From the NCBI GenBank assembly GCA_000004985.1, contig GG738845.1: 64,000 nt of DNA. The stretch is one strand, 5' to 3'. A program made the translations under genes and the position numbers. Below the pieces are notes generated by a model. It worked only from the letters and a program-made list of their open reading frames with translations, was not told the origin of the DNA and did no database searches. Below are positions 10,629-48,871 of this stretch, in pieces (the first letter of the stretch is position 1; each line of letters opens with the position of its first letter). Source of the DNA: Naegleria gruberi (taxonomy: Eukaryota).

Positions 10629-13073
10629 ATGAAAGGTTTTACATCTGAAGAACAACAGAATTATGCCCAACACCAAATGGACGTCTCCAACAAGGGACAC
10701 AAGGGATTGGGATTCTCCTCTGCAAAGAAATCATCCTCCACACAACAGCCAGCTGGTAAACATACTATTCTTGGTGGAAAGGTCTCTTCAACCACTTTCC
10801 GTATCTCACCAAGCAAGAAGCAAAAACAAGAAAAGTTGAAAAAGTTGTACCCAGCCATTTATGACTTTTTAGTTTATTGTGAATTGGATAATGTTGCTAA
10901 AGTTTTTGCTGAAACCACTGAAATGGTAAGTTGAACATTTTGTGAATCTTTGATCACTTAGTAATAATTTAAATAGGAAAATTTTGAAGAATTAAACATG
11001 CCAAAGGTTATGGAAGTTTATGAAGAACATTTTGCCAAGTATGGAATTGATCTTTATGGCGACTTTTTGAACTTGGGAGCTGCTTTAAAGCTTGCTAAAT
11101 CAACTAATACAATGACTGACGATGAATCATCAACAAAGAAGGCACCAACTTCTACTACATCTGCTTCCACAAGTCAATCCACAGAATCTTCTCCAAAGAA
11201 GAAATTTAGAAAGACCAAATCTGATTCATCATCTTCATCGTCATCATCAGATTCTGATTCCGATGCTGAAATGAAAGAAACACCAAAGGAAACACAAAAG
11301 TCCAAGAAGGAATCCAGCTCATCAGATTCTTCATCTGATGAAGAAATGAAAGATACCAAGCCTACTCAAACTAAGCCAGCTATCTCAAAGAAGGATTCTT
11401 CCTCATCTAGCTCTTCATCATCAAGTGAAGATGAGATGAAGCCAACACAAACCAAGCCAGCTGTGACAAAGAAGGATTCATCATCCGATTCAAGTTCTGA
11501 CAGCTCATCAGAAGATGAAAAGAAACCAGTTAGTAAGCCAGCTGTACAAGTCAAGCCTATTGTCACAAAGAAGGATTCATCAGATTCAAGCTCTGACTCT
11601 TCATCATCAGAAGATGAAAAGAAACCAACTCCAAAACCAGCTGTTGAAACTAAGCCTATTGTCACAAAGAAGGATTCTTCAAGCTCTGATAGTTCTGACT
11701 CTTCATCATCAGAAGACGAAAAGAAGAAGCCAGCTATCAAACCAACCGTCACAAAGAAGGATTCATCATCTGATTCAAGCTCTGATTCATCTGATGAAGA
11801 AATGAAGGATGCCAAGCCTACTCAAACTAAGCCAGCTATCTCAAAGAAGGATTCTTCAAGCTCAGACAGTTCCGACTCTTCAGAAGATGAAAAGAAACCA
11901 GTTAGTAAGCCAGCTGTTCAATCAAAGCCAGTAACTAAGAAGGATTCTTCATCTGATTCCAGCTCTGACTCTTCAGATGATGAAAAGAAACCAACTCCAA
12001 AACCAACTGAAACTAAACAAGTCATAACAAAGAAGGATTCATCTGATTCATCTGATTCCAGCTCTGACTCTTCAGAAGATGAAAAGAAACCAGTTAGTAA
12101 GCCTATTCAACCAAAGCCAGTAACTAAGAAGGATTCCTCATCTGATTCTGATTCATCATCCTCTTCAGAAGATGAAAAGAAACCAACTCCAAAACCAACT
12201 GAAACTAAACCAGTCATAACAAAGAAGGATTCCTCATCTGATTCTGATTCCAGCTCTGACTCTTCAGATGACGAAAAGAAGCCAGCTACCAAACCAATTA
12301 TCCAATCTAAACCAACCAAGAAAGATTCTTCATCCGATTCTGATTCATCATCCTCTTCAGAAGATGAAAAGAAACCAGTTAGTAAGCCAGCTGTTCAAAC
12401 CAAACCTATTGCTGCAAAGAAGGATTCATCAGATTCAAGCTCTGACTCTTCATCAGAAGATGAAAAGAAACCAACTCCAAAACCAACTGAAACTAAACCA
12501 GTCATAACAAAGAAGGATTCCTCATCTGATTCTGATTCCAGCTCTGACTCTTCAGATGACGAAAAGAAGCCAGTTAGTAAGCCAGCTGTTCAACCAAAGC
12601 CAGTAACTAAGAAGGATTCTTCATCTGATTCTGATTCATCATCCTCTTCAGAAGACGAAAAGAAACCAGCTGTTAAGGCAGTAGAAAAGAAACAAGCTAG
12701 CTCTTCATCAGATTCTAGCTCATCTGATGAAGAAATGAAAGAATCTTCTGATGCTTTGAAGAGAAAGAGAGAAGATACTGAGGAACAAGTTGAAGAACAA
12801 ACTGATGCCAAGAAGAACAAGTTTGAAAATGAAAACAATAGAGGTGTCCCATATCAAAGAGTAAAGAGAGACGAAGTCAAATTCCAAGATGAAAGATTAT
12901 CAGTAAGATCATACAGTTTTGGTTCTCATGGCGAAAGAGCTGTCAGAGATTTGGGCCCAACTAAAGGAAAGGACTTTAGAGCAGCTAAAACAAAGAAAAA
13001 GAAGAGTACGTATAGAGGAGGTGCTTTGGATGTCAATGTTGTTAGAAGCATCAAGTTTAATAATAACAAGTAA
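10629..13073 (+). CDS. NOLC1: Nopp140/SRP40-like nucleolar phosphoprotein with N-terminal LisH motif, about 10 alternating acidic-Ser/basic-Lys-Pro modules, and a C-terminal SRP40_C domain. Exons 10629..10925 and 10977..13073.
   Basis: Exon 1 ends KLYPAIYDFLVYCELDNVAKVFAETTEM with a GTAAGT donor; the 51-nt intron ends AAATAG. The body is SSSDSSSDEE/KKPTPKPTETKPV repeats. The C-terminus GVPYQRVKRDEV.F.DERL.....F.....G.RA..DL....GK.FR..KTKKK...YRGG is the conserved Nopp140 tail. Confidence 0.7.
11880..12660 (+). repeat. In-frame tandem coding repeats inside the Nopp140 gene, about 288-nt units. Two 118-nt stretches at 12168..12285 and 12456..12573 are identical.
   Basis: The string gaagatgaaaagaaaccaactccaaaaccaactgaaactaaaccagtcataacaaagaaggattcctcatctgattctgattccagctctgactcttcagatgacgaaaagaagccag occurs twice exactly, and related units lie upstream from about 11990. 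Confidence 0.7.
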
Positions 13074-14700
13074 ATAATTTTGATAATTTTTACTGTGTTT
13101 TAGTTCTTATCAACAAATTAATATCATTATTTAAGGACGTTAAAAATAATTTCAAATTACTCTTTCCACCCTGAATAGAGTTATTATTTGTTAGCAAAAT
13201 ACTAATGTGGTATTTAAGGATCCAAATCCCACGCGACTCCTTTGCAGTGACCAAGAAAAACAAATAAATTTTTGAGGTCATCATTTTTCATGTTTTCACA
13301 ATAAATATTAATATACATTTATTGTAAGCTTAAATCATTTTCTTTGACACATCATTGAATGCATCTGACTTTTTGTTATTGTTAAAGCTTTTTCTTGCAG
13401 TTAGAAAAGCAATTTCAAAAACATCCATAACATTTTCAATATATAATTTGCTGTTCTCATCATTAACATTTGCCACTTCTAATTCATGATAACTCTTGCT
13501 TCTTAATTATAGTGGTTTTTTGAACAATGCCTAATGATGTTGGATACTAAATATGAAAAAAACAAGATGATAATGTTGTGAACATTTTAATAACTCTTCA
13601 GAGGTTGTTTTATGCTGTAACGAAATGATCATAATGATTTATGAATCATGTGCTTAGAACCTATAACAAAAATATCTAAATCAACAGTTCTATACTTTGA
13701 CATGTAGGTGAAATCATTTTCATGCCCTTTTGGATGTCTAGTAGGGTTGTTAAATAATTTTGCTATTGAGGGTGGTGATTGAAGAGCCCTAGTAATTGTA
13801 ATAGCTTTCATCATCAAATGGATCAATTTTTGAAAAAGATGTTACTCATCCTCTTAAAACAAAAACATTAAATCAAAGTTGTCCATATGGACAAGGGTAA
13901 CAATATTAGTACTATTCATCATTGTGTTTGTCTTATGTTGTTCTAATTTGAATAACCAATCGAAATGCTTATATGTAGTTGTAGTCATTTTTTATCAAAT
14001 ATGAAAATGTAAATTTTACTAAAACCTACCCAATATCACATTGTGTTAATAGGTAATTTGTAAAAAAGTTGGAACAATGATGTCTAATGAATATTGCATG
14101 TAGAAATATTTGTTTGTTGTTTTTATGGTCTTGGTTGTCTTGTTATTACTTTCACCCTCTTTCTGAAATATATTACGCGTGTAACTATGAGATATACATC
14201 ATTACAAAAACACAATACATAATCCCATTGTGCTTGTTGTATGTTTGAATCATCGAACAATTTAGAGAAAAGGAAATTGAAATTTTCTAATATACTAACA
14301 GAAAAATAATCGCATCTCTCTAAGTTACACGTGTAGATTAATTGGTAGGAATAATAATAATTCAAAAAACTTAAAAAACCATTAAAAACAAATCTGCTTT
14401 GGATAATTGGTTATCCAAATGAAAATATCATTTTACCACATTATCTGTCTCCAAATTGGATATGATTAAATGAAATCCAATAAAATAATATTAACTTATT
14501 ATATCTGAAATTTCTATTGAAATCTTATTCTGTGTTAGAGTGGGAATTCTTTAGCCGCTTGTGGTAATTGAGTATAATGAGTAATTTTATTCCTTTCATT
14601 TACTCTTTCTTGGTAGTACCGTTTGGTGGTTTAGTGTTTCTCAATCTTAATTCGAGTTTGAATATAATTTTTGTATATTTTCACAATTTATTTTGTTGTT

Positions 14701-14716
14701 ATATATATATATATAT
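14701..14716. repeat. (AT)8 microsatellite in the gene-poor AT-rich island. A second TA-rich tract lies at about 15146..15170.
   Basis: Read directly: atatatatatatatat. Confidence 0.8.
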
Positions 14717-15039
14717 GTGAACAAAAATTATATTTATCTATGTTAGAAAAATCATTTCCCTATTATTCTTCATCATACTCCTCATCATGCAGTTAAAATT
14801 TAATTTGATTGCAATAATCTAAATGATTAAAAGTACTTTCTTTTTATTAGAAATCAAGTTACCAGCATTAATTGTCTTAAAAATCAATGTTGTTCAACAA
14901 CTTCTATCATATTTATTGGAATCTTGATGATCCAATTTTATTCCATACCATGTTTACCATTTAATATCGAGTAGTAAAAATATGTAAATTAAAAAATGGA
15001 AAAAATGTTTTTTTGAAAAAAATTTCGATAAAAACTAGA

Positions 15040-15067
15040 AATTTATTAGTATTTCAATGAAAAATAC
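15040..15067 (+). repeat. Copy 1 of an exact 28-nt dispersed repeat, aatttattagtatttcaatgaaaaatac.
   Basis: Identical 28-mer at 15040..15067 and 16306..16333. Both copies sit 3-12 nt downstream of an aaactaga motif. Confidence 0.7.
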
Positions 15068-16305
15068 GAATTTTCATACATGCGTTGGTGGGATATGTTT
15101 GTCATATTAGATATTTAATAAAAATAAAATAAAAATTTTCGCATGCATATATATATATTTATGTATATATACATCCGAAAAAATTTTTGTTGAAAGTTGG
15201 TTTATAAGATGGTGGTTAAATTGGTTTATCTGAAAAATCATTTAATGTGATGTTAGATATAAAGATAATGAAATTAATTGAAAATTAAGAAGCAAAAATA
15301 AATTTTCAAAAATTTTATCGATTTGAAATTTAGAAAAGCTTAACAAAGTAATATAAAATACAAAGACCATTAATTTTTAAAAATCTTCTAAAGTTGGTAT
15401 TATCATTATGAAGATTATTGATTGGAAGTAATAATCTTTATGGTAAATTCAAAGAAAATGAATTCAAAGAAAAAACAAACTTTGTAAAAATATTACAAAA
15501 ACACTGTTATTAGAAGTATTAAAAGTAGAGTTGTGATAGTTGTTTATTAAAACAAAGAAAAACTCTTACACCAAGAAATAGACAACTAGATTCATGGAGG
15601 TTGATGGAGTGATAAGTTTAAAAATATATTTAAACAAAATCCCAATAAAATTCGATATGTTTTGCCTGAGATGGGTGGGGTGGTAATGGTATTTCTGAAA
15701 ACTCTATTATTAACTAATTCTTATTTATTTAAAGCACAACTCATTTGATTAAAAAGGTCAACAAATGATCCTATCTTGTTCCTGCTGGTGTTTGAATTGA
15801 TTTTGTTGTGAGTAAATTGATTTTTTTTTACTACATTTCAGAATTACAGATATAGCTTTTCTTTACAATAATCCATCTTAAACCACTTTTTGGATGTTGG
15901 TGACTAAAAAATCAGCAAAAAGCGAAGTTTGGGATAGATATTAATATAGCATCATACTTATAATTATATTCTTGCTCTTCTGAAAATAAAAACTTACATT
16001 TCAAACCTCATCCACAGAAAATAAAATAATTTATCGTTCGTAATATTTGGGAGTGGTATATAAAGGTGTTTGTATTAATAATGAGCTTTTCGGCAATTAA
16101 GAACTCTGTGTAACACTTGATGATTTGGGTTTAGATTGAGTGTTGTTGAGGGGGAGTGTGTTTTAAATAGGCAAATAGGAATTTTGAGTTTTTGGGAGGG
16201 ATAGTTGTTTCAGTAGTTTGGATCAAGTTTACTAAAATAAAAAACAAAAAACTCGCAGAAACTAGAGTAATTTTAACATATCTTGTATTTCCTTTAGAAT
16301 CAAGT

Positions 16306-16333
16306 AATTTATTAGTATTTCAATGAAAAATAC
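16306..16333 (+). repeat. Copy 2 of the exact 28-nt dispersed repeat, about 280 nt upstream of the Zn2Cys6 gene ATG.
   Basis: Same 28-mer as at 15040..15067. Confidence 0.7.
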
Positions 16334-16609
16334 AATTAAGCAAACGTAGGTATTGTGAGTTTCTAGAAACCGTTAATTTATTGGTTGGAATAAATCTTGG
16401 GAGAACAATTATTTCCATTGAAGTTTCAGTGTTTTCTTTAAAATATTGAATTTTTAATAGGTTTATTGAAGAAGATATTTTACAGGTTCGTGATTTTCAA
16501 ATTTCTGAGAAAACTAAAATGAGATAGAATATTTATTGGCACAGTAAGTGAAAGAAGTGTAGTATGTTTTAAAAAAAGAAACGAATTATTTAAAATCTGA
16601 AACAAAAAA

Positions 16610-18103
16610 ATGTACAATCCGCCAGAGGATACTAGTTCGGAACAACAATTTCATCCTATCTCATGTAAAAATTGCAAACGTTTGCACAAAACTTGCAACA
16701 AAAGGTATCCAACTTGTAGCGGGTGTGAATGGAGAAACATTAGATGCGAATATGAGAAACCAAAGAGAGTAACGAACAAGAAGAAAACAAAGTCAGAAGT
16801 AACCTCCATTCAATGGATTGCAAATACGGAACAAAAAACTAGTGATAATATGGATCCATTATCGGATTGGATTGAAATTAGAAAATATATTGATCAGTAT
16901 TTTACAATATTGCATGAAATTAAATTTATTGAAAAAGAAGAGTTAGAACTTTATATGTTGAGGAGTGATAACTCAGCACAACTGCCCAACTTTAAACAGA
17001 TACGTGCTTTATTCTATTGTATAGTGGCACATTTGACACAAATATTAGCTCTTGAATGTGCTGATGATTCACTGAACAGAGCTGTTGAAGCTGTACGTGA
17101 GTTTTTCAACGAATACTCTAATTTTTATGTGGCTTGTTCTTATGGATTATTGGCATTGGTTGAAGTTGGGTATGGAAGGGTGAAGAATGCCAGATTCTAT
17201 TTGAAATTTGTTGATTTTTATATGGATGAACTTGCAAAGGAAGATAGGAATAATTATTATGTTGTTAATTTACAAAAATTACAAATAGTTGTATGTGTGG
17301 ATGCGAAATTTGATTCTTCTGTGAGCTGTGTTGTTAGAGATTGGTTTTATATTTTAGGAAAATATATTGGTATCGAGCTCCCAAAAGAATGGAAAGATTT
17401 TATTGTTCAAGAAATAGATGAAAATAATTACATACTATTTATTCAAATGCTGCAAGCACTCATTCAAATAGGAAAGTTAAATCTAAAAGATGAAAAAACA
17501 GTAAGATTTTATAACGAAACTGCAGACATGCTTTATCATGGAATACGCATAAGAATTCTTACTGAGATGAACAAGAGTCCAGAGTTGGTGGAAGAAAGTG
17601 CCTTGAAAATTGTTCATTTAACTGAGTCAGATATGTTTTCGGTATCTCCTGGATTTCTATCAAACTCTATTGCTGCATCTGCAAAAGTAATTCTTCACAT
17701 AGTTAGACTGATAGAAATGGGCCATAGAAAGAATTGTGATGAATTTTCGATACATGGACCAATTAATTATTTTCAAATTTTATCTAAAATTTACAGAGGC
17801 TTGCAAATTATGGGAAAACGATTCAGGAAAGTATTTCTTCTTCAGGGTTCAACAATCAAGGAAATTGAAATTATTTTAAATCAATATTCTCTTAATTCTC
17901 CTTTGACAAGAGTTGATATGAACAATATTTCGTCAGAAAATAGTGGACCATCAATTACAGAATTCTTCCAGATTATTTCAGCAAATAAGGACACTTCTGA
18001 ATATGAACGAATGCAATATGAGCGAAATGTATTCAATATTTTACAACATATACAATTGCCTAATAGCAAACCAACAAGTAATTACCCACCTATGGGTTTG
18101 TAA
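16610..18103 (+). CDS. Zn(II)2Cys6 binuclear-cluster transcription factor, single exon, 497 aa.
   Basis: N-terminal CKNCKRLHKTCNKRYPTCSGCEWRNIRCEY is the six-cysteine Gal4-type cluster followed by a basic linker. Long uninterrupted ORF. Confidence 0.7.
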   Translation: MYNPPEDTSSEQQFHPISCKNCKRLHKTCNKRYPTCSGCEWRNIRCEYEKPKRVTNKKKTKSEVTSIQWIANTEQKTSDNMDPLSDWIEIRKYIDQYFTILHEIKFIEKEELELYMLRSDNSAQLPNFKQIRALFYCIVAHLTQILALECADDSLNRAVEAVREFFNEYSNFYVACSYGLLALVEVGYGRVKNARFYLKFVDFYMDELAKEDRNNYYVVNLQKLQIVVCVDAKFDSSVSCVVRDWFYILGKYIGIELPKEWKDFIVQEIDENNYILFIQMLQALIQIGKLNLKDEKTVRFYNETADMLYHGIRIRILTEMNKSPELVEESALKIVHLTESDMFSVSPGFLSNSIAASAKVILHIVRLIEMGHRKNCDEFSIHGPINYFQILSKIYRGLQIMGKRFRKVFLLQGSTIKEIEIILNQYSLNSPLTRVDMNNISSENSGPSITEFFQIISANKDTSEYERMQYERNVFNILQHIQLPNSKPTSNYPPMGL

Positions 18104-18198
18104 ATAAATTATTAAATCATAAACTCCAATTAAATAAATAATAGAAATGAAGCTTACAACAACAGCAAACAATCAATTCTGATTTCTGTTAAAAAAAA

Positions 18199-19898
18199 AT
18201 GCAAACTACCAAACGTTCCGTTTCCGTGGTTACTTCCTCCTTGAAGCGCACTCTTGCCAGTGGTCAAAAGAGAAATTTCTCATCAGGTATCGTTAACAAT
18301 GGTGTTAACACTGAAAAATGGGCTGCACAATTGAATGCCTCTTTAAAGGATGTTGATCCTGAATTGTTTGATATCATTGAACACGAAAAGAATAGACAAT
18401 ACAAGGGTTTGCAATTGATTCCATCAGAGGTAAATATATTTTAATTATAATTTTGATCATAAAATTTCGGAACGATAATTAATTTGGAATATTATATTTA
18501 AACATTTGATGACGATTCATAAACAATTAATACCAACAACAATTTAAATAATACCAATACTTGTTTAATAATAATAACAGAACTTTACTTCCAAGGCCGT
18601 TTTGGATGCTTTGGGATCTGTCATGCAAAACAAGTACAGTGAAGGTTATCCAGGAAAGCGTTATTATGGTGGTAATGAATATATTGACATGTCTGAATCT
18701 CTCTGTCAAAAGAGAGCCCTTGAAGCATTCAATTTAGATCCAAAGGAATGGGGTGTTAACGTTCAAAGTTTGAGTGGTTCTCCAGCTAACTTTTATGTTT
18801 ACACTGCTTTACTTCAACCTCATGATAGAATTCTCTCATTGGATTTGCCACATGGAGGCCAGTAAGTTTTTTTCACACATACACTCAATTCAATCTTTCC
18901 TTAGTCTTTCACATGGTTACCAAACTCCAACAAAGAAAATTTCTGCAGTCAGTATCTATTTTGAAACATTAGGATACAGATTGAATGAAGAAACTGGTTT
19001 GATTGATTATGCCAAGATGGAAGAATTGGCTGATTATTATAGACCAAAGTTGGTTGTTGCTGGTGCTAGTGCTTATTCTCGTTTGATTGATTATGCTGCC
19101 TTCAGAAAGGTTTGCGATAAGCATAATGCTTACCTTGTTTCTGATATGGCTCACATCAGTGGTTTGGTTGCTGCTGGTGTTATTCCATCACCATTTGAAC
19201 ACTCACATGTTGTCACTACTACTACTCACAAGAGTTTGAGAGGACCAAGAGGCGCCATGATCTTCTACAGAAAGTCAATTGAAGGTCTCGAGGATAAGAT
19301 TAATGCTGCTGTTTTCCCAGGTCATCAAGGTGGTCCACACAATCATACCATCTCTGCTTTGGCTGTTGCCTTAAAGATGGCTACAACCCCAGAGTACAAG
19401 GAATATCAAGAACAAGTTTTGAAGAATTGTAAAGTTTTGACTGAAGAAATGAAAAAGTTGGGCTACAAGATTGTCAGTGATGGTACTGATAACCACTTGC
19501 TCCTTGTTGATTTGAGAAATAAGGGTGTAGATGGTGCTAGAGTTGAAGCTGTTCTTGAACGTTCGAGCATTGCTGTCAATAAGAATACCGTCCCAGGTGA
19601 TAAATCTGCTATGGTTCCAGGTGGTATCAGAATGGGTTCACCTGCTTTGACAACCAGAGGATTTTTGGAAACTGACTTTGCTCAAGTTGCCCAATTTGTT
19701 CATGAGGGTATTCAAATTGCTCAAAAGACTAAGGTTGAACTTGAAAAGCAAGGTCTCAAGAAGGTTAAGGACTTTAAGGATCATTTGGATCAAAACCCAG
19801 ACGCTGTTGGTATTACTCAATTGAGAAATAAGATTGAATCATTCAGCAAGTCATTCCCATCCATTGGTTTTGACAAGGAATTCATGAAATACAAATAA
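18199..19898 (+). CDS. SHMT: Serine hydroxymethyltransferase, probably mitochondrial. Exons 18199..18429, 18581..18861 and 18905..19898.
   Basis: R/S-rich presequence [17 protein letters not shown]. Exon 2 reads [33 protein letters not shown]...SGSPANF...LDLPHGG. Exon 3 starts (H)[14 protein letters not shown] and includes [11 protein letters not shown] (PLP-lysine region). Introns are 151 and 43 nt with phases checked. Confidence 0.85.
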
Positions 19899-20081
19899 AT
19901 CAAATAGCTTTAAACTCATAATTACTAGATATAGAATATGATATATTTAAAAGATCAAAAGTATACTTTCCATCTTTGGAGATTGAAATTAACATTCGTT
20001 CCATTTTTGTAACATGAACCAGAAAAGTTACAATAAATAGTGAATCACATCAGAAGAGTATTTAATATTCTTTTAGAAAAA

Positions 20082-21246
20082 ATGAAATCCCTCTGTTTGA
20101 ACGTTACGTTTTGTTTTCATACCTTCTTTGAGATTCTTCAATCACTATGTCACCTGTTATTATTCAGTACTGCAATCATGTTTAGAGAGCATGCAGAGAG
20201 AATGAATTCCCATCTCCTATTGAATCGATCAGTGATGTACTTGGTTATTGGAGTTTCCTTGATGTTATTAATTCTACTTAAGGTTTTTGTTTGGGTTTCT
20301 TCAATTTTGACCTTTAGAAAATTGTCATACAGAGTTGAAACTGACTACCATCCACTCTCCTCTGATGAATGTTCATCAGTCAAGTTGGTAGAAAGAGTCA
20401 ATTCAAGATCATGGATTCAAAACATCAGATTATTGTACTATATTAGAAAATCCATTCATTCTAACATTTTTGTGTTTGCCTTATCAACAATTTCATTTGC
20501 CTCTATGGTTTCTTGGTATGTTGTTTTTTCGTTTATTCTAATGTTCAATATTGTACGAATCAACTTGTTGTTACTTTTCCATTAGTGTAACGTTGAGTAT
20601 TCTCTTCATTCTATACTATTACACTATTGAATATGTCTTGATCACTTGTATTACTTCACTTGTTGTAACTATTTTAAGCATACCAATCAATACTTTCCTC
20701 TTCCTTCATTCCTTCATCAATGAATCTCTCAACAAGTTGGGTCACACAGCTGGAGAGTCATCAAACCCTCAACATGATGAAGAAAACAAATTCACTCACA
20801 ACACAACCATTCAAACACCTCGTTCCACCATGTCTCAAGATGAAAAGGGAAATGAAACGTCCTATGAATCTTCCATACTTTCTGGAGGTGATGGTTATTC
20901 AATTATTAATAGTGAAACATCTCATCTTATTACAAGTGGTGGTGGTGGAGCAATATTTGAGAGAGATCACAATTCTTTGGAGGATAAAGATGAGAATGAG
21001 GCAAGGCCCTTCTTTACTACCTCAACAAGTTCCTCTCCAATGCAAATCAAATTAGATCATCACCATCAACAACAATTTGATAATCCATTGCAAGGAACCT
21101 CCAATTTCACTAATTTGGTTCAGGATGATCCACCCCAAGAAATTCAAAAACCACAACAAGTCAAACCAAAAAACAATAATGCAAATAATAAGAAACTAAA
21201 GAAGAAGAAGAAACAAAATCTAGCCCAAATTGAAACTCTTAATTAG
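20082..21246 (+). CDS. Polytopic membrane protein of unknown function with a hydrophilic basic C-terminal tail. Exons 20082..20515 and 20586..21246.
   Basis: Two ORFs in different frames (20040..20585 and 20551..21246). A GTATGT donor at 20516 and a CATTAG acceptor at 20584-85 (70-nt intron) join them in frame. First in-frame ATG at 20082 (aaaaaATG). Multiple hydrophobic segments. Confidence 0.4.
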
Positions 21247-21419: not shown

Positions 21420-22628
21420 ATGATAGTAACAACAATGGATAGTTTAGAAGCAACAACCACAGCACCTGTAGAAGAAGAAACAACTGCTGGCACATGCTCT
21501 TCTTCGGTTGTTTGTAACGAAATATCATCATGGAATAATACAACAACAACAACAACGAAATATAATAATGAGGAGGAAATAATTATTGTTGAAACTAACG
21601 ATGATATTGATGATGCAAGTCCAATACAATCGGAAATTACTCAACATCCCATGTTCTACTTTGATGATTCACAAACAGATGCAGGAGATGATATTCATTA
21701 TACAACTTCATTACTAGCTAGTAATACCAATAATAACAGCAACGTTCATTCTCCATATGGAGTTAGACTTGTTGCAAGGAAAATTGGTAACATTCTTCAA
21801 ACCTCAGTTAGTAGGACTATCAGTGGAGGAAAATCTCTGTTGGGAGCTGTTAGAAAACCATTAATGACAGGTAATGATGAACATTTTGAGGTTATTATTA
21901 CTGATCCCAATAATGTTAATAGTGAAATTATGCAATTTAATACAATGCAGAGAAAGGTATTTAATCTTTCTGCAGTTTATTCTAAAGTAATTGGATGGAG
22001 AAAGAAAGCTACCAGACAAATAAGGAGACGTATCAATAATTATGATGATAATTATTTACATCCTCCCACTCAATTGAGTGATAATCATCTCACTAGACCT
22101 TTTAGAAAAAGAAAACGGAAAGTTCCAACATGTTCCACTTGTATTATTCCACAAGAAATTTGGGCCTACAATGTTCTTCCCTACATGAGTTGGACTGACA
22201 AGTTGATAATGAGAATTGTCTCCAAAATGTTTCTCATAATGGTTCAAGAACAGGATGAAACATGGAGTGAATTATTTGAAGCAAAGAGTTTAAAGTACTT
22301 TGGTGAACCAACTGATTTGTGGAAAAATACACATAATTACTTTTACTATGATTTGGATGAGGCAATAGTAAAACAATATTTTGAGGAAGTTCTTTTTGAA
22401 CGATATAGGAAAATATACAGACATTTTTTCAACACACTTAAATTATCCTACCAACAAGATTCCCAAGCAATTATTTCATCCAGTCATACAAATATTGAAA
22501 GACAAGAGAGTTTTATTTCGTACTTATCATCTAGTAGATCAATTTCTGAAAGAAAGAAACAAGTCAACCAAAGAAAAAATCTATCCCAACAAGAGTTACT
22601 CAAAAGCGTTGAACACAGAAGTAAATAA
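21420..22628 (+). CDS. F-box-like protein, hypothetical. May continue by splicing into the downstream transmembrane ORF (22703..23412).
   Basis: F-box-like motif IPQEIWAYNVLPYMSWTDKLIMRIVSKMF. ORF stop at 22626-28, but a GTAAAT donor at 22621 plus a TTAACAG acceptor at 22701-02 (82 nt) would fuse it in frame to ORF 22381..23412. Confidence 0.4.
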   Translation: MIVTTMDSLEATTTAPVEEETTAGTCSSSVVCNEISSWNNTTTTTTKYNNEEEIIIVETNDDIDDASPIQSEITQHPMFYFDDSQTDAGDDIHYTTSLLASNTNNNSNVHSPYGVRLVARKIGNILQTSVSRTISGGKSLLGAVRKPLMTGNDEHFEVIITDPNNVNSEIMQFNTMQRKVFNLSAVYSKVIGWRKKATRQIRRRINNYDDNYLHPPTQLSDNHLTRPFRKRKRKVPTCSTCIIPQEIWAYNVLPYMSWTDKLIMRIVSKMFLIMVQEQDETWSELFEAKSLKYFGEPTDLWKNTHNYFYYDLDEAIVKQYFEEVLFERYRKIYRHFFNTLKLSYQQDSQAIISSSHTNIERQESFISYLSSSRSISERKKQVNQRKNLSQQELLKSVEHRSK

Positions 22629-22677
22629 TAACAAGTATTCACTTGAAAATGATGGAAGACCAAGATCTCCCAATGAG

Positions 22678-23412
22678 ATGTACCTGTACATGACATTAAC
22701 AGTTGTGTGCTGTATACTATTTTTTGTCTTTTTAAATATTCGGCTCGTTCATCCGTATTGTAATAACTTAATAGAGAGTTATTATGCTGGAGAGGTAAAA
22801 TTAACTGAGGCAGAAGCTTCCAGTTTGCTACTCTCAGAGGTTTTTAATAATGGTGTAGTCTTGTGCTCACCCTTACTTTCGATTTTAGGACTCTTCACTC
22901 TATATCTTTTAAGATCCACACATATGGGAGTGCAATACACAAAGTATGCACTCAGATTTTCTCCTAGGTATTTTTTGATTGGAATTGGTGTTTGGAAATT
23001 TGTAACACCGTTCATTATTTGGCTATTCAGTTCATTTTCAGTTATTCTATTCGTATTGTATCTGGTTTTTGAAACAATTCCAGCTCTAGTTCCAACAATA
23101 CCAATAATGATTTTACATTTGGGTTTAATTTTAGTATTTGGTTGGTCAATTCTCTACTTTTTTGTCATGTTCATTACATGCTCATTGGATAGAAAGTCAC
23201 TTATTGAAAATGCCATGACTTGTATTTATGGCATTTTCATGATTTCATCCCCAATTGCTTTCTATGTACTATTAGGATTGGGTTTTAGTAGTGGTTACAT
23301 AGCAATACCATGTTGCGTATTCTTTTTAACTCTACTTTTATATGGAATGAATTATCTCAATTATTTGGAAGATTTTTTCACTATGAACGAGGATAAACTG
23401 CCATTCTCTTAA
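22678..23412 (+). CDS. Multi-pass transmembrane domain ORF. Either an independent gene starting at ATG 22678 or the C-terminal exon (22703..23412) of the F-box gene.
   Basis: About 8 hydrophobic helices (VVCCILFFVFL..., LGLFTLYLL..., IGIGVWKFVTPFIIWLF...). Only 50 nt separate it from the upstream stop. Confidence 0.35.
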   Translation: MYLYMTLTVVCCILFFVFLNIRLVHPYCNNLIESYYAGEVKLTEAEASSLLLSEVFNNGVVLCSPLLSILGLFTLYLLRSTHMGVQYTKYALRFSPRYFLIGIGVWKFVTPFIIWLFSSFSVILFVLYLVFETIPALVPTIPIMILHLGLILVFGWSILYFFVMFITCSLDRKSLIENAMTCIYGIFMISSPIAFYVLLGLGFSSGYIAIPCCVFFLTLLLYGMNYLNYLEDFFTMNEDKLPFS

Positions 23413-31872: not shown

Positions 31873-33360
31873 TTAATCCTTCTTCAAATAGAATCTTCTG
31901 TGCTTATCGTCGACTCTATCCAAGTAATAAGATCCTGAATCAATATAATCGGTAGGATTTGTGGCAACAAAGTCATGCTTCAAATATGTTTCCATGTTAG
32001 CATCCATGATGGAAGAATATTGTTCTGGGCTTACTTCAATTCTATTGTTAAGACGATTTGGTAAATCAAGGATATTCTTAATGTCATCCAATTGATATCT
32101 GTGTTTCTTGTGAGTAGTTTCTCTTCCTTGCAATTCAAACATGGCACTGGCCAAACCAGATCCGTATGAGAACATATTAATACGCTTATCTTGGAGTTCT
32201 TGACCCTTCAAACCAACCAATGAAGCAAAACCAGCGTATAAAGAAGCAGCATAAGTATTACCCAATTCTCTTGGAAGATAAGTACTTGGAGATACCTTTT
32301 GTTCATAAATCTTCTTAGTTAAATTAATAAAGAATTTGCTTGATTCGTTATCATTGTAAGTCTCTTCTCTTGGAGCAGATTTGGTGAACTTTTTAATTTG
32401 ACTCTTAGTTTCGGCATCCTTAACATTGTATTTAGCACAAATTCTATCAAATTCTTGCTCACTGGTAGTCAATGCAAAATCGGAATAAATCATACGAGCA
32501 AATGACTTTTGAACCAACTTGTTGTATGGAGCATGGAAACACAAATAATCCAAATCAGCAACAGCAACTGGTTCTTCATGTCTAGCTCTTAATCTTTCAT
32601 AACAAATATCCAAAGCTCTCAAATAACAAATATTTGAATATTGACCATCAACAGTTGGGAAATAGCTGGTCTTGACTGGTTTGTAAAAATCATAAGCATG
32701 TTCCATGTGGAATGCCTTCAATCTAAAATCATTAAAAGCCAAAGGAGCATCTCTACCCAACAACATGGCAACAGCACCTGCACCACCAGTTGGTCTAGCT
32801 GGTCCCTTTTCATATTGAGCAATATCTACAGCTACAACAACACTATAAACATCATTCTTTTTACAAGTAGTATGTTCGGAATTGAGCCAATACAAGGCAT
32901 TGAACAAGGCATTAGTAGCACCATAACAAGCATTAATAGTATCAATACCTTCCATTTCTGAAGTATCAACTTGTGGGAATTGTTGCATAATAAAACTCTT
33001 AATAGACTTGGATTTATCAACTGGTGATTCTGTGCCAACTTCAAGTCTCTTAACTTGTCTTGGGTCAATTGAATACTTTTCAAATAAACGTTTTACTGCA
33101 GTCATTGCCAATGAAACAGTATCTTCTCTTTCAAGGTCAACAACAGCCATTCTACTTTGAGCCAATCCGATAGTGTACTTTCCTTCACTCACACCATCAT
33201 GTTGTTCCAAAGCTGATTGTGAAACAAATCTATTTGGGAAGTATGTTTCCATGCCAACAATACCAAAATGTGGATTTTGAGGTGAAATATTTGTAGAAAA
33301 GTGTTTGGCTGATTGATGATTCTTAATCAATCCTCTCAAAGATTGTCTGCTCTTGTTCAT
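31873..33360 (-). CDS. HMGCS: Hydroxymethylglutaryl-CoA synthase, single exon, 495 aa.
   Basis: Family motifs VGMETYFPNRFVSQ, LEVGTESPVDKSKS, NACYGATNALFNA (active-site Cys), MEHAYDFYKP and YGSGLASAMF. Clean ATG at 33360 with a short basic N-terminal extension. Confidence 0.9.
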   Translation of the reverse strand: MNKSRQSLRGLIKNHQSAKHFSTNISPQNPHFGIVGMETYFPNRFVSQSALEQHDGVSEGKYTIGLAQSRMAVVDLEREDTVSLAMTAVKRLFEKYSIDPRQVKRLEVGTESPVDKSKSIKSFIMQQFPQVDTSEMEGIDTINACYGATNALFNALYWLNSEHTTCKKNDVYSVVVAVDIAQYEKGPARPTGGAGAVAMLLGRDAPLAFNDFRLKAFHMEHAYDFYKPVKTSYFPTVDGQYSNICYLRALDICYERLRARHEEPVAVADLDYLCFHAPYNKLVQKSFARMIYSDFALTTSEQEFDRICAKYNVKDAETKSQIKKFTKSAPREETYNDNESSKFFINLTKKIYEQKVSPSTYLPRELGNTYAASLYAGFASLVGLKGQELQDKRINMFSYGSGLASAMFELQGRETTHKKHRYQLDDIKNILDLPNRLNNRIEVSPEQYSSIMDANMETYLKHDFVATNPTDYIDSGSYYLDRVDDKHRRFYLKKD

Positions 33361-47809: not shown

Positions 47810-47856
47810 ATCAGGATTGAATTTAAAATAGATACGTGGCACTATCAACCAAAAAA

Positions 47857-48219
47857 ATGTCTGCAACCACCGAAAACAAAGTCACTTTCAAGATTACTTT
47901 AACATCACACCCAAAGCAACCTTTTAGAACGTATGTAAATAAATGATTGACCATTTCCGATCATTGAATTAATCATCACACATATTGTAACAATTAATAA
48001 TAACAATCAAACGGGATTAGAATCAAGGTTCCTGAAAGTGCACCATTCACTGCTGTTTTGAAGTATGCTGCTGAAGAATTCCAAATTTCTGCTGAAACTA
48101 GTGCAATTCTCTCCAATGATGGTATCGGTATTAATCCTAGTCAAACTGCAGGAAACGTTTGGCTCAAGTATGGTACAGATTTACGTATTATTCCAAGAGA
48201 CAAAGTCGGTGGATTTTAA
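47857..48219 (+). CDS. UFM1: Ubiquitin-fold modifier 1 (UFM1). Exons 47857..47930 and 48021..48219, intron 90 nt.
   Basis: [24 protein letters not shown](T)[65 protein letters not shown] is near-identical in pattern to metazoan UFM1, including the VG-xx C-terminus. Confidence 0.8.
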
Positions 48220-48394
48220 TTAAATTATATTTTCTTGAACGGATTTTAATGATTTATTCAGGACTAATTAGTTGTGCCATCAATAACCCATTATCAACCT
48301 TCTCCATATTCCATCTAAAATTTTAAATATTGGATTTGAAAATATTCCGAATATCAAGAGTATGAAACCAATTTCCAACTCCTCTACTATATCG

Positions 48395-48607
48395 TTAAAT
48401 CTTTTCCGATGATTGTTTTAAATCAACCTTGATGGTCACATCTGGCTTCAAAATTCTGTGGGCAACTTCGGCACCCAAGAAGATACTGGCAATACTCAAA
48501 GATGTAATCAAGAGAAAACGACTAGACGATTTTTTAAGTGGGATTGCGCTCTTGGCAAGTTTTTGTTCCTCTGCAGGTGCTTGACCTGGTTTTTTGATTA
48601 TTTTCAT
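48395..48607 (-). CDS. Small single-pass/tail-anchored membrane protein, 70 aa, hypothetical.
   Basis: Basic N-terminus, hydrophobic FLLITSLSIASIFLGAEVA, short C-tail. ATG at 48607. Confidence 0.25.
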   Translation of the reverse strand: MKIIKKPGQAPAEEQKLAKSAIPLKKSSSRFLLITSLSIASIFLGAEVAHRILKPDVTIKVDLKQSSEKI

Positions 48608-48871
48608 TTTTTTAATATTTAAATCAATTGTTGTTACAAACAGTTATTATTTTCTGATTAGAAACAGAATATGTTAAATATATTAATTTAACTTTTAAAT
48701 CTGTGTTTAAATCTCAAAAATATTAGTATCATCTGGACTATAAATTCTCATATTTTGATAAACAACTATTAAAATTTCGCGCCCAAATTTAAAATTTAAA
48801 AAAAAAATACAGTGTTTTCAGTTTAAACACATTTAAAAACCGAGTGATCTTATTGTTGTTGCTATTCTATT

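What the first reader, a model, noticed from the sequence alone, without database searches (positions are those of the whole stretch)
13074..16609. 3.5 kb gene-poor, extremely AT-rich island in an otherwise tightly packed region
Elsewhere in the window genes are under 300 nt apart. Here about 3.5 kb lies between the Nopp140 stop and the Zn2Cys6 ATG with no ORF of 100 codons or more. The island contains (AT)n tracts at 14701 and about 15146. It also has an exact 28-nt repeat (aatttattagtatttcaatgaaaaatac) at 15040 and 16306, each preceded by aaactaga. Minus-strand stretches look protein-like but lack start codons, for example ...YHELEVANVNDENSKLYIENVMDVFEIAFLTARKSFNNNKKSDAFNDVSKKMI-stop ending near 13338, and 13629..13826. 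A TATATAAAGG box sits at 16057. Candidate explanations are: a multi-exon gene with atypically long introns missed by ORF scanning, a non-coding RNA locus, a decayed mobile-element remnant, or a long regulatory region for the transcription-factor gene.
Basis: seen in the sequence. Interest (0 to 1): 0.5.

Follow-up and report, generated by a model that had tools for sequence, protein, structure and literature searches.

The report
Intergenic spacer holding a decayed pseudogene
The 3.5 kb gene-free, AT-rich stretch is an unusually long but otherwise ordinary spacer in the amoeba Naegleria gruberi; its left end holds the wreck of a duplicated orphan gene, and the rest matches nothing recognisable.

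Summary
Window 13074-16609 is the only long ORF-free gap in the window (3527 nt; the next is 1038 nt, the median 97 nt). The window is Naegleria gruberi, not a yeast. The island's GC (25.9%) is close to that of the other short non-coding gaps (27.3%), so only its length is unusual.

The protein-like minus-strand pieces are real. Positions 13333-14124 (-) are an unprocessed pseudogene of the orphan gene NAEGRDRAFT_76460 (538 aa). Four pieces score 32-64 bits; the best score from shuffled controls was 30.8. The 61-nt intron is kept at the same position. The start codon is ATG->ATA and the splice acceptor is AG->AA. Exon 2 has a ~136-nt deletion and a +1 frameshift that creates a TAG. About 120 nt are inverted and about 245 codons are missing.

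The other 2.7 kb has no coding signal, Pfam domain, Rfam family, tRNA or dispersed repeat. The 28-mer is a two-copy, ~44-nt local duplication.

Best reading: decaying formerly genic DNA plus the upstream region of the Zn2Cys6 gene. Low interest. A centromere or origin role for the 19-22% GC core cannot be excluded, but nothing supports it.

The parts
13074..16609 (.). ORF-free, AT-rich intergenic island between two plus-strand genes
   Evidence: Largest gap without a 100-codon open frame. GC 0.259. No coding-level dicodon score.
10998..13073 (+). Left flank: SRP40/Nopp140-like gene
   Evidence: Pfam SRP40_C, E 1.8e-19.
16610..18103 (+). Right flank: Zn2Cys6 transcription-factor gene
   Evidence: Pfam Zn_clus, E 2.2e-5. 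100% identical to an NCBI 'predicted protein [Naegleria gruberi]'.
13333..14124 (-). Unprocessed pseudogene of the NAEGRDRAFT_76460 (P0006, 538 aa) family, convergent with SRP40
   Evidence: Exhaustive HMMER hit, E 5e-8. Cluster membership. Collinear tblastn pieces of 63.9, 40.4, 35.0 and 32.3 bits, against a null maximum of 30.8. DNA identity 72-80% to the metagenome copy L001.
14030..14094 (-). Exon 1 remnant (residues 1-22, 59% identity); first codon is ATA instead of ATG. About 30 nt of upstream similarity continues to 14124
13969..14029 (-). Retained intron remnant, 61 nt as in L001. GTAGGT donor; the acceptor aligned with L001's AG is AA
13656..13968 (-). Exon 2 remnant (residues 23-173). 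It has a ~136-nt deletion, a +1 insertion near 13790 that creates a TAG, and in-frame stops at 13854-13856 and 13842-13844
13525..13645 (+). Inverted internal segment of the pseudogene. Residues 179-215 (32.3 bits, with stops) and probably residues 442-459 (23.9 bits, noise level on its own) read on the plus strand. Residues ~198-441 are missing
13333..13470 (-). C-terminal remnant (residues 487-530, 42% identity, 40.4 bits) with a TAA stop at 13333-13335
14601..15600 (.). AT-rich core, GC 0.22. The window's 500-nt GC minimum (0.192) starts at 14975
14700..14716 (.). (TA)8.5 microsatellite
15128..15191 (.). Imperfect palindrome around an imperfect (AT)12.5 tract at 15147-15171
   Evidence: I3; DNA fold -10 kcal/mol, z -2.4.
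15029..15072 (+). Copy A of the short direct repeat (exact 28-mer at 15040-15067)
16295..16337 (+). Copy B of the short direct repeat (exact 28-mer at 16306-16333), 273-315 nt upstream of the Zn2Cys6 ATG
16057..16066 (+). TATATAAAGG, 553 nt upstream of the Zn2Cys6 ATG. Significance unknown
   Evidence: Most ATG ORFs in the window have no TATAWAW within 400 nt upstream.
15447..15626 (+). Marginal second match to the C-terminus of the same family (residues 472-534). Not established
   Evidence: 26.2 bits against a null 95th percentile of 25.4. A small profile puts its best hit at 15537-15602, P about 0.05. No DNA-level support.

Best explanation
The island is a long non-coding spacer in the Naegleria gruberi genome, made at least partly of decaying, formerly genic DNA.

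Shown:
- Its left end (13333-14124, minus strand) is an unprocessed pseudogene. It is a DNA-level duplicate of a Naegleria-specific orphan gene (NAEGRDRAFT_76460 family) that still carries the family's 61-nt intron.
- The copy has lost its start codon and its splice acceptor.
- It has acquired stops, a frameshift, a ~136-nt deletion and a ~120-nt inversion, and it has lost about 245 codons.

Inferred:
- The remaining ~2.7 kb is DNA under little or no coding constraint. It comprises the dead gene's former upstream region, possibly older unrecognisable remnants, the SRP40 3' region and the promoter/5' region of the Zn2Cys6 gene.
- Its composition has relaxed to the AT-rich level of non-coding DNA in this genome.
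- The two-copy ~44-nt repeat, the (AT)n tracts and the imperfect palindrome are local duplication or slippage products of such DNA.
- No dedicated function beyond ordinary transcription signals for the flanking genes is needed.
For: - Organism and flanks.
- Pseudogene homology: the 70-aa open frame hits P0003 at E 5e-8 in an exhaustive search of 1.84 billion proteins. P0003 clusters with N. gruberi XP_002668624.1 / NAEGRDRAFT_76460.
- tblastn with that protein gives four pieces (63.9, 40.4, 35.0, 32.3 bits) that account for one rearranged copy; three are collinear on the minus strand and the 32.3-bit piece lies inverted between them. The best score in 60 Markov-shuffled islands averaged 21.8 bits and peaked at 30.8.
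- DNA-level identity of 72-80% to an independent copy, L001, includes ~30 nt upstream of the start and an intron of identical length and position.
- Disabling lesions are read directly from the alignments.
- Rest of the island: dicodon scores stay at noise level. ORF lengths fit chance. No Pfam domain in six frames. No Rfam family or tRNA. No similarity to neighbouring genes. No dispersed repeats.
- GC equals that of the other non-coding gaps.
- Published figures for N. gruberi (57.8% coding, mean gene 1,677 bp, 5.1% repeats; PMC9928731) imply a mean spacer near 1 kb. A 3.5 kb spacer is therefore long but not extraordinary (my inference).
Against: - The pseudogene explains only 792 of 3536 nt.
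- The negative homology results for the other 2.7 kb are weak.
- No transcription data, no genome-wide copy counts and no sister-species sequence could be examined.
- The parent gene is only a predicted protein of unknown function.
- The exact 28-mer inside an otherwise diverged region could reflect constraint rather than a recent duplication.
Confidence: 0.7

Rival explanations
1. Extended cis-regulatory region of the Zn2Cys6 transcription-factor gene. The right-hand 1-2.5 kb would carry enhancer or promoter modules, with the duplicated ~44-nt element as a repeated binding site and the TATATAAAGG at 16057 as a distal core promoter with a long 5' UTR. This is compatible with the pseudogene occupying the left end.
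For: Both flanking genes are on the plus strand, so the island is upstream of the TF gene. Copy B of the repeat lies ~270-315 nt before the ATG and copy A 1.27 kb further up. The 28-nt core is exact while the flanks are unrelated. There is a single TATATAAA in the island.
Against: Other genes in the window manage with spacers of about 100-300 nt, and most lack any TATA-like motif within 400 nt. Two copies cannot distinguish constraint from a recent micro-duplication. The repeat has no CGG-type half sites typical of Zn2Cys6 binding (sequence inspection plus general knowledge). No expression or conservation data are available.
Confidence: 0.2
2. Remnant of a mobile element. The NAEGRDRAFT_76460 family would be the cargo or transposition gene of a Naegleria-specific element, and the island would be a dead insertion.
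For: The family exists in at least three copies, two of them decayed: the island copy, and the metagenome copy L001, which lacks residues 199-308. The intact copy sits on a small 13-kb contig, as repeats often do. A weak 31-nt, 74% inverted pair lies near the island's edges, at 13133-13163 and 16264-16294 (I1).
Against: No transposase, integrase or reverse-transcriptase domain in the island or in P0006. No relatives in viral or metagenome contigs. The inverted pair is at chance level for AT-rich DNA (44 such pairs). No target-site duplication was seen. Similarity to L001 ends ~30 nt upstream of the start codon.
Confidence: 0.12
3. Unannotated non-coding RNA gene or genes, or a long non-coding RNA, transcribed from the island.
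For: A large non-coding space. One window (15114-15233, minus strand) folds better than shuffles, z -4.3.
Against: No Rfam family at gathering threshold; at E<=1 the only hit is a chance-level miRNA match at E 0.29. No tRNA. The z -4.3 window is the (AT)n palindrome, whose DNA fold has z of only -2.4. Mean z over 114 windows is -0.41.
Confidence: 0.08
4. A chromosomal maintenance element, that is a centromere core or replication origin, located in the 19-22% GC core.
For: It is the lowest-GC segment of the 64 kb. It is gene-free, with palindromic AT tracts. [quoted passage not shown]
Against: The composition is only ~5 points below ordinary spacers. Spacers of this size are probably numerous genome-wide (inference). 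There is no satellite or repeat architecture. Nothing positive links the island to segregation or replication.
Confidence: 0.03
5. A functional multi-exon protein-coding gene missed by ORF scanning.
For: Real protein homology on the minus strand, and a retained intron.
Against: ATG->ATA, acceptor AG->AA, in-frame stops, a +1 frameshift, a 136-nt deletion, an inverted segment and ~245 missing codons. Dicodon scores are below those of every tested real gene. No predicted protein contains the 70-aa frame: the best hit is only 61% identical.
Confidence: 0.02

Closest known systems
Unprocessed (duplicative) pseudogenes, or 'gene relics', in compact microbial eukaryote genomes (for example the gene relics described in Saccharomyces cerevisiae intergenic regions; cited from memory)
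   Same: It is a DNA-level copy of a cellular gene and retains intron and upstream sequence. It is disabled by start-codon loss, stops, frameshift and deletions. It sits in an otherwise anonymous, over-long intergenic region and partly explains that region's length.
   Different: The parent family is a Naegleria-restricted orphan of unknown function. The copy also carries a small internal inversion. Most of the spacer remains unexplained.
Short AT-rich regional centromeres of protists (for example the ~2 kb centromeres of Plasmodium falciparum, or low-GC diatom centromeres; cited from memory)
   Same: A gene-free, kilobase-scale local GC minimum.
   Different: GC is only slightly below ordinary spacers here. 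There are no data on uniqueness per chromosome and no CENP-A data, and a pseudogene occupies part of the island. The resemblance is compositional only.
Long upstream regulatory regions of fungal transcription-factor genes (for example WOR1 or EFG1 in Candida albicans; cited from memory)
   Same: An over-long spacer upstream of a Zn2Cys6-type regulator in a compact genome.
   Different: Different organism (Heterolobosea). No binding, expression or conservation evidence. Part of the spacer is demonstrably a dead gene.
Decayed DNA-transposon or MITE remnants
   Same: An AT-rich, non-coding, multi-copy gene family with degraded members.
   Different: No transposase-like domain, no terminal inverted repeats above chance, no target-site duplication.

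Membership tests
Unprocessed pseudogene | Statistically significant homology to a protein-coding gene family | tested here: met
   E 5e-8 in the exhaustive HMMER search. tblastn pieces of 63.9, 40.4, 35.0 and 32.3 bits against a shuffled-island maximum of 30.8. DNA identity 72-80% to copy L001.
Unprocessed pseudogene | Disabling lesions that preclude the parental product | tested here: met
   ATG->ATA, acceptor AG->AA, in-frame stops, +1 insertion, ~136-nt deletion, inverted segment, ~245 codons missing.
Unprocessed pseudogene | Intron and flanking sequence retained (as opposed to a processed retrocopy) | tested here: met
   A 61-nt intron remnant at the same position and of the same length as in L001. 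About 30 nt of upstream similarity.
Unprocessed pseudogene | No functional transcript or protein | not testable with these tools
   No expression data are accessible. No predicted protein in the 1.84-billion-protein library contains the fragment (best identity 61%).
Transposable-element remnant | Transposase, integrase or reverse-transcriptase homology | tested here: not met
   No Pfam hit in six frames at E<=1. P0006 has no Pfam hit above threshold and no PDB hit at E<=10; its PHROG hits are weak short matches (best E 0.0072) to families of unknown function.
Transposable-element remnant | Terminal repeats (TIR or LTR) and a target-site duplication | tested here: inconclusive
   Only chance-level inverted pairs (31 nt at 74%). 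The ~44-nt direct repeat does not bound a homologous unit.
Transposable-element remnant | Multiple dispersed genomic copies | not testable with these tools
   The full genome is not available. At least three family copies are known. None elsewhere in the window.
Known non-coding RNA families (Rfam) and tRNA | Covariance-model match at the gathering score, or an ARAGORN call | tested here: not met
AT-rich regional centromere | CENP-A occupancy; one such region per chromosome | not testable with these tools
   None of the passages of the 2026 preprint I read report a centromere DNA map for Naegleria. It is the lowest-GC stretch within this 64 kb only.
Protein-coding gene (intact) | Coding-level codon/dicodon statistics and an open, spliceable frame | tested here: not met
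   The island's maximum 40-codon dicodon score is 20.6, against peaks of 37-61 and means of 15-34 in real genes. Lesions as listed above.

The most novel reading that the evidence does not exclude
The 19-22% GC core (about 14.6-15.6 kb), with its (TA)n tracts and imperfect palindrome, could be a functional chromosome element. It could be the centromere core or a replication origin of this ~1.56 Mb N. gruberi scaffold, embedded in pseudogene-bearing DNA. I found no report of centromeric DNA sequence for Naegleria, though I read only passages of one preprint.
Probability: 0.03. Interest if true: 0.7.

Novelty: new member of a known kind. Interest (0 to 1): 0.15.

Why it matters
It matters little beyond annotation. 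The island gains one unannotated pseudogene of a Naegleria-specific orphan family (NAEGRDRAFT_76460-like). This shows that the family has intact and decayed copies, and it partly explains why one spacer in a gene-dense region is over-long.

There is also a methodological point. A word-indexed protein search missed a homologue that an exhaustive HMMER search found with a 70-residue fragment. Negative homology results on decayed, AT-rich DNA should therefore be treated cautiously.

If the AT core were shown to bind CENP-A or ORC, the locus would become interesting, but nothing here points that way.

Tried and rejected
- Yeast origin: rejected. The Zn2Cys6 ORF is 100% identical to a Naegleria gruberi protein.
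- Known ncRNA or tRNA: no hits.
- Structured RNA: the only z < -4 window is the (AT)n palindrome.
- Coding gene: dicodon scan at noise level; ORF lengths fit chance.
- Pfam on the conceptual pseudogene and on all six frames: nothing. PDB sequence search: only a chance ParE2 hit at E 0.3.
- Word-indexed homology searches with chimeric island ORFs: nothing. One search was later shown to be a false negative.
- Exact-protein contig look-ups for window proteins and P0006 failed; N. gruberi is not in that index.
- Dispersed repeats or duplicates of neighbouring genes inside the island: none.
- Extension of the 28-mer repeat: it stops at ~44 nt. The 28-mer is absent from JGI metagenome contigs.
- P0006 relatives in viral or metagenome contigs: none.
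- P0006 function: no Pfam hit above threshold, no PDB hit and only weak PHROG matches to families of unknown function. The single-sequence AlphaFold model is too poor to search with (pLDDT 37.8).
- Second family fragment at 15447-15626: marginal, P about 0.05; not claimed.
- A MAFFT alignment of short pseudogene pieces to P0006 was unusable.
- The Fritz-Laylin 2010 genome paper is not held. No paper mentions the parent gene's identifiers.
Full report
**Observation.** Between the stop of the plus-strand ORF 10998-13073 and the ATG of the plus-strand ORF 16610-18103 there is no open frame of 100 codons. This 3527-nt gap is the largest of 42 such gaps in the window (next 1038 nt, median 97.5 nt). 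The next-largest gaps contain strong coding windows, probably small exons; the island does not.

The other reported features also check out:
- (TA)8.5 at 14700-14716 and an imperfect (AT)12.5 at 15147-15171.
- The exact 28-mer at 15040 and 16306, with no other copy in the window at up to 3 mismatches.
- TATATAAAGG at 16057.
- The 'aaactaga' prefix is only loosely shared. One copy is adjacent and the other is 39 nt away, and the 8-mer occurs five times in the window.

**Organism and flanks.** The right-hand ORF is 100% identical over 497 aa to an NCBI 'predicted protein [Naegleria gruberi]' on a 1.56-Mb contig. Its only other relative is a 38%-identical N. gruberi paralogue. The window is therefore from the heterolobosean amoeba Naegleria gruberi, not a yeast. 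Pfam confirms SRP40_C in the left gene and a Zn2Cys6 cluster in the right gene.

**Composition in context.**
- The island is 25.9% GC.
- The pooled short non-coding gaps of the same window are 27.3% GC.
- ORF-covered DNA is 34.5% GC.

The AT-richness is therefore essentially that of non-coding DNA in this genome. Only the core at about 14.6-15.6 kb (22.0%; 500-nt minimum 19.2% at 14975) is the window's extreme. Published figures for N. gruberi are 57.8% coding, mean gene length 1,677 bp and 5.1% repeats (PMC9928731). These imply a mean spacer near 1 kb. A 3.5 kb spacer is long, especially for this very dense window (83.6% covered by long ORFs), but probably not rare genome-wide. That last step is my inference.

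**Negative tests.**
- No Rfam family at gathering thresholds in the whole window. In the island at E<=1 there is only a chance-level miRNA match (E 0.29) on the (AT)n palindrome.
- No tRNA or tmRNA.
- Sliding-window folding gives a mean z of -0.41. The single outlier (z -4.3) is again the palindrome at 15128-15191, whose DNA fold is unremarkable (-10 kcal/mol, z -2.4).
- A dicodon model trained on the window's long ORFs gives real genes 40-codon peaks of 37-61 and means of 15-34. No frame of the island exceeds 20.6, which is comparable to antisense noise in real genes.
- Open-frame lengths in the island match order-1 to order-3 Markov simulations (P 0.18-0.77). There is only a mild, post hoc excess of minus-strand frames in 13074-14420 (P 0.03-0.08).
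- No Pfam domain appears in any of the six frames at E<=1.
- No fragment of a neighbouring gene and no dispersed repeat was found.

**The pseudogene.** Two word-indexed searches with concatenated island frames found nothing. An exhaustive HMMER search with the 70-residue open frame 13632-13841 (-) did find a match. It hit P0003 (134 aa) at E 5e-8 with 61% identity over 46 residues. The two other hits are internally repetitive proteins matched only over short stretches and look spurious. P0003 comes from a 985-nt ENA metagenome contig (L001). At 90% identity it clusters with XP_002668624.1 / EFC35880.1 / NAEGRDRAFT_76460 (P0006), a 538-aa N. gruberi predicted protein on a 13,269-bp contig.

tblastn of P0006 against the window places these pieces:

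| P0006 residues | Window position | Strand | Identity | Score |
|---|---|---|---|---|
| 1-22 | 14094-14029 | - | 59% | 35.0 bits |
| 23-173 | 13967-13656 | - | 33%, with gaps | 63.9 bits |
| 179-215 | 13525-13635 | + (inverted) | 46% | 32.3 bits |
| 487-530 | 13470-13336 | - | 42% | 40.4 bits |

A probable piece for residues 442-459 lies at 13592-13645 (+). It scores 23.9 bits, which is noise level on its own, but it is collinear within the inverted segment. In 60 Markov-shuffled islands the best score averaged 21.8 bits, with a 95th percentile of 25.4 and a maximum of 30.8. The four main pieces are therefore real.

At the DNA level the island matches L001 at 72-80% over 144, 101 and 44 nt. 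The match includes ~30 nt upstream of the start codon.

The alignment with L001 shows these lesions:
1. The family's phase-2 intron is retained at the same position and length (61 nt; 14029-13969). The copy is therefore a genomic duplicate, not a retrocopy.
2. The initiator ATG is ATA (14094-14092).
3. The acceptor AG is AA. The nearest AG is 1 nt downstream and would shift the frame.
4. About 136 nt of exon 2 are deleted.
5. A 1-nt insertion near 13790 shifts the frame and creates a TAG.
6. There are further in-frame stops at 13854-13856 and 13842-13844.

Together with the ~120-nt inversion and the loss of residues ~198-441, this is a thoroughly dead, unprocessed pseudogene spanning 13333-14124. 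It is convergent with SRP40.

L001 is itself a second damaged copy. It is 97.7% identical to P0006 over residues 23-198, but it lacks residues 199-308 and is frame-shifted afterwards. The family therefore has several copies in different states of decay.

The family's function is unknown:
- Pfam gives only sub-threshold hits.
- There is no PDB sequence hit.
- PHROGs gives only weak matches (best E 0.0072) to short families of unknown function.
- There are no relatives in viral or JGI metagenome contigs.
- The single-sequence structure model is unusable (pLDDT 37.8).

**The remaining 2.7 kb.** Nothing recognisable was found in 13074-13332 or 14125-16609. A match to the family's C-terminus at 15447-15626 (+) is marginal. 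It scores 26.2 bits against the null 95th percentile of 25.4. A small C-terminal profile again picks 15537-15602, with P about 0.05. It has no DNA-level support, so I do not claim it.

The 28-mer belongs to a ~44-nt, 88.6%-identical direct duplication (15029-15072 and 16295-16337) whose flanks are unrelated. With two copies only, it may be a recent micro-duplication or a short cis-element. It was absent from JGI metagenome contigs. A genome-wide count could not be made.

One TATATAAA is not informative. Most genes in the window have no TATA-like motif within 400 nt of their ATG.

**Interpretation.** The best-supported reading (confidence ~0.7 for the island as a whole, ~0.95 for the pseudogene) is an over-long spacer composed of decaying, formerly genic DNA plus the ordinary 3' and 5' signals of the flanking genes. 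The composition has relaxed to the non-coding level of this genome.

Rival readings:
- A genuine extended regulatory region for the Zn2Cys6 gene (~0.2). This is compatible with the pseudogene.
- A dead mobile-element insertion (~0.12). No transposase, termini or target-site duplication were found.
- An unknown ncRNA (~0.08).
- A centromere or origin function for the AT core (~0.03). In the one Naegleria kinetochore preprint I read, the passages shown describe kinetochores by microscopy and report no centromeric DNA sequence. Nothing positive points to such a function here.
- An intact multi-exon gene (~0.02).

**Limits.**
- N. gruberi is not in the contig look-up index.
- The demonstrated false negative of the word-indexed search means further relics in the unexplained 2.7 kb cannot be ruled out.

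**Verdict.** This is an unannotated pseudogene inside an ordinary, if long, intergenic spacer. It is a new member of a known kind and of low interest.

Noticed in passing
whole window; 16610-18103: The window is Naegleria gruberi (Heterolobosea), not a yeast. The Zn2Cys6 ORF is 100% identical to an N. gruberi predicted protein, and its only detectable relative is a 38%-identical N. gruberi paralogue.
   Followed up: yes
L001:1-985 (ENA metagenome ERZ929261): This 985-nt metagenome contig carries a second NAEGRDRAFT_76460-like copy. It is 97.7% identical in protein over residues 23-198, but it lacks residues 199-308 and is frame-shifted afterwards. The orphan family therefore has several copies, some decayed.
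   Followed up: partly
method: The word-indexed protein search returned nothing for a query that contained the pseudogene. An exhaustive HMMER search with a 70-aa piece found the homologue at E 5e-8. Negative results of the indexed search on decayed AT-rich sequence are unreliable.
   Followed up: yes
window 15128-15191: An imperfect palindrome is centred on an imperfect (AT)12.5 tract. It sits inside the lowest-GC 500 nt of the window (19.2% at 14975) and gives the only strong folding outlier in the island (z -4.3 as RNA, -2.4 as DNA).
   Followed up: partly
window 14174-14195 and 14314-14335: A 22-nt inverted repeat (82% complementary) with a relatively GC-rich ACGCGTGTAAC / GTTACACGTGT core, spaced 118 nt apart. 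It lies 80-240 nt upstream of the pseudogene's former start codon. It could be a relic promoter element or a MITE-like unit.
   Followed up: no
window 13120-13197 (-): The 64-aa open frame between the SRP40 stop and the pseudogene stop gives a noise-level match (23.9 bits) to P0006 residues 439-464, out of order with the rest of the pseudogene. It also has the island's highest dicodon score (20.6). It may be another displaced fragment or chance.
   Followed up: partly
window 20040-21246 and 21420-23412: Pairs of long ORFs abut or overlap in different frames on the same strand (20040-20585 / 20551-21246; 21420-22628 / 22381-23412). They look like single genes split by short introns or frameshifts.
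   Followed up: no
window 47810-48847 and 18104-18773: The next-largest 'gaps' contain windows with coding-level dicodon scores (46-49). They probably hold short exons or small genes rather than true spacer.
   Followed up: no
window 12500-12720: The SRP40/Nopp140-like gene is built of ~96-99-nt tandem units encoding acidic Ser/Asp/Glu runs alternating with Lys/Pro-rich stretches (families D1-D5; translation).
   Followed up: no
window 31873-33360 (-): This HMG-CoA synthase ORF has its best solved-structure matches in two ~450-aa HMG-CoA synthase entries (2f82, 7cqt; E ~1e-116) and carries an N-terminal extension of about 30 residues that lies outside those alignments.
   Followed up: no
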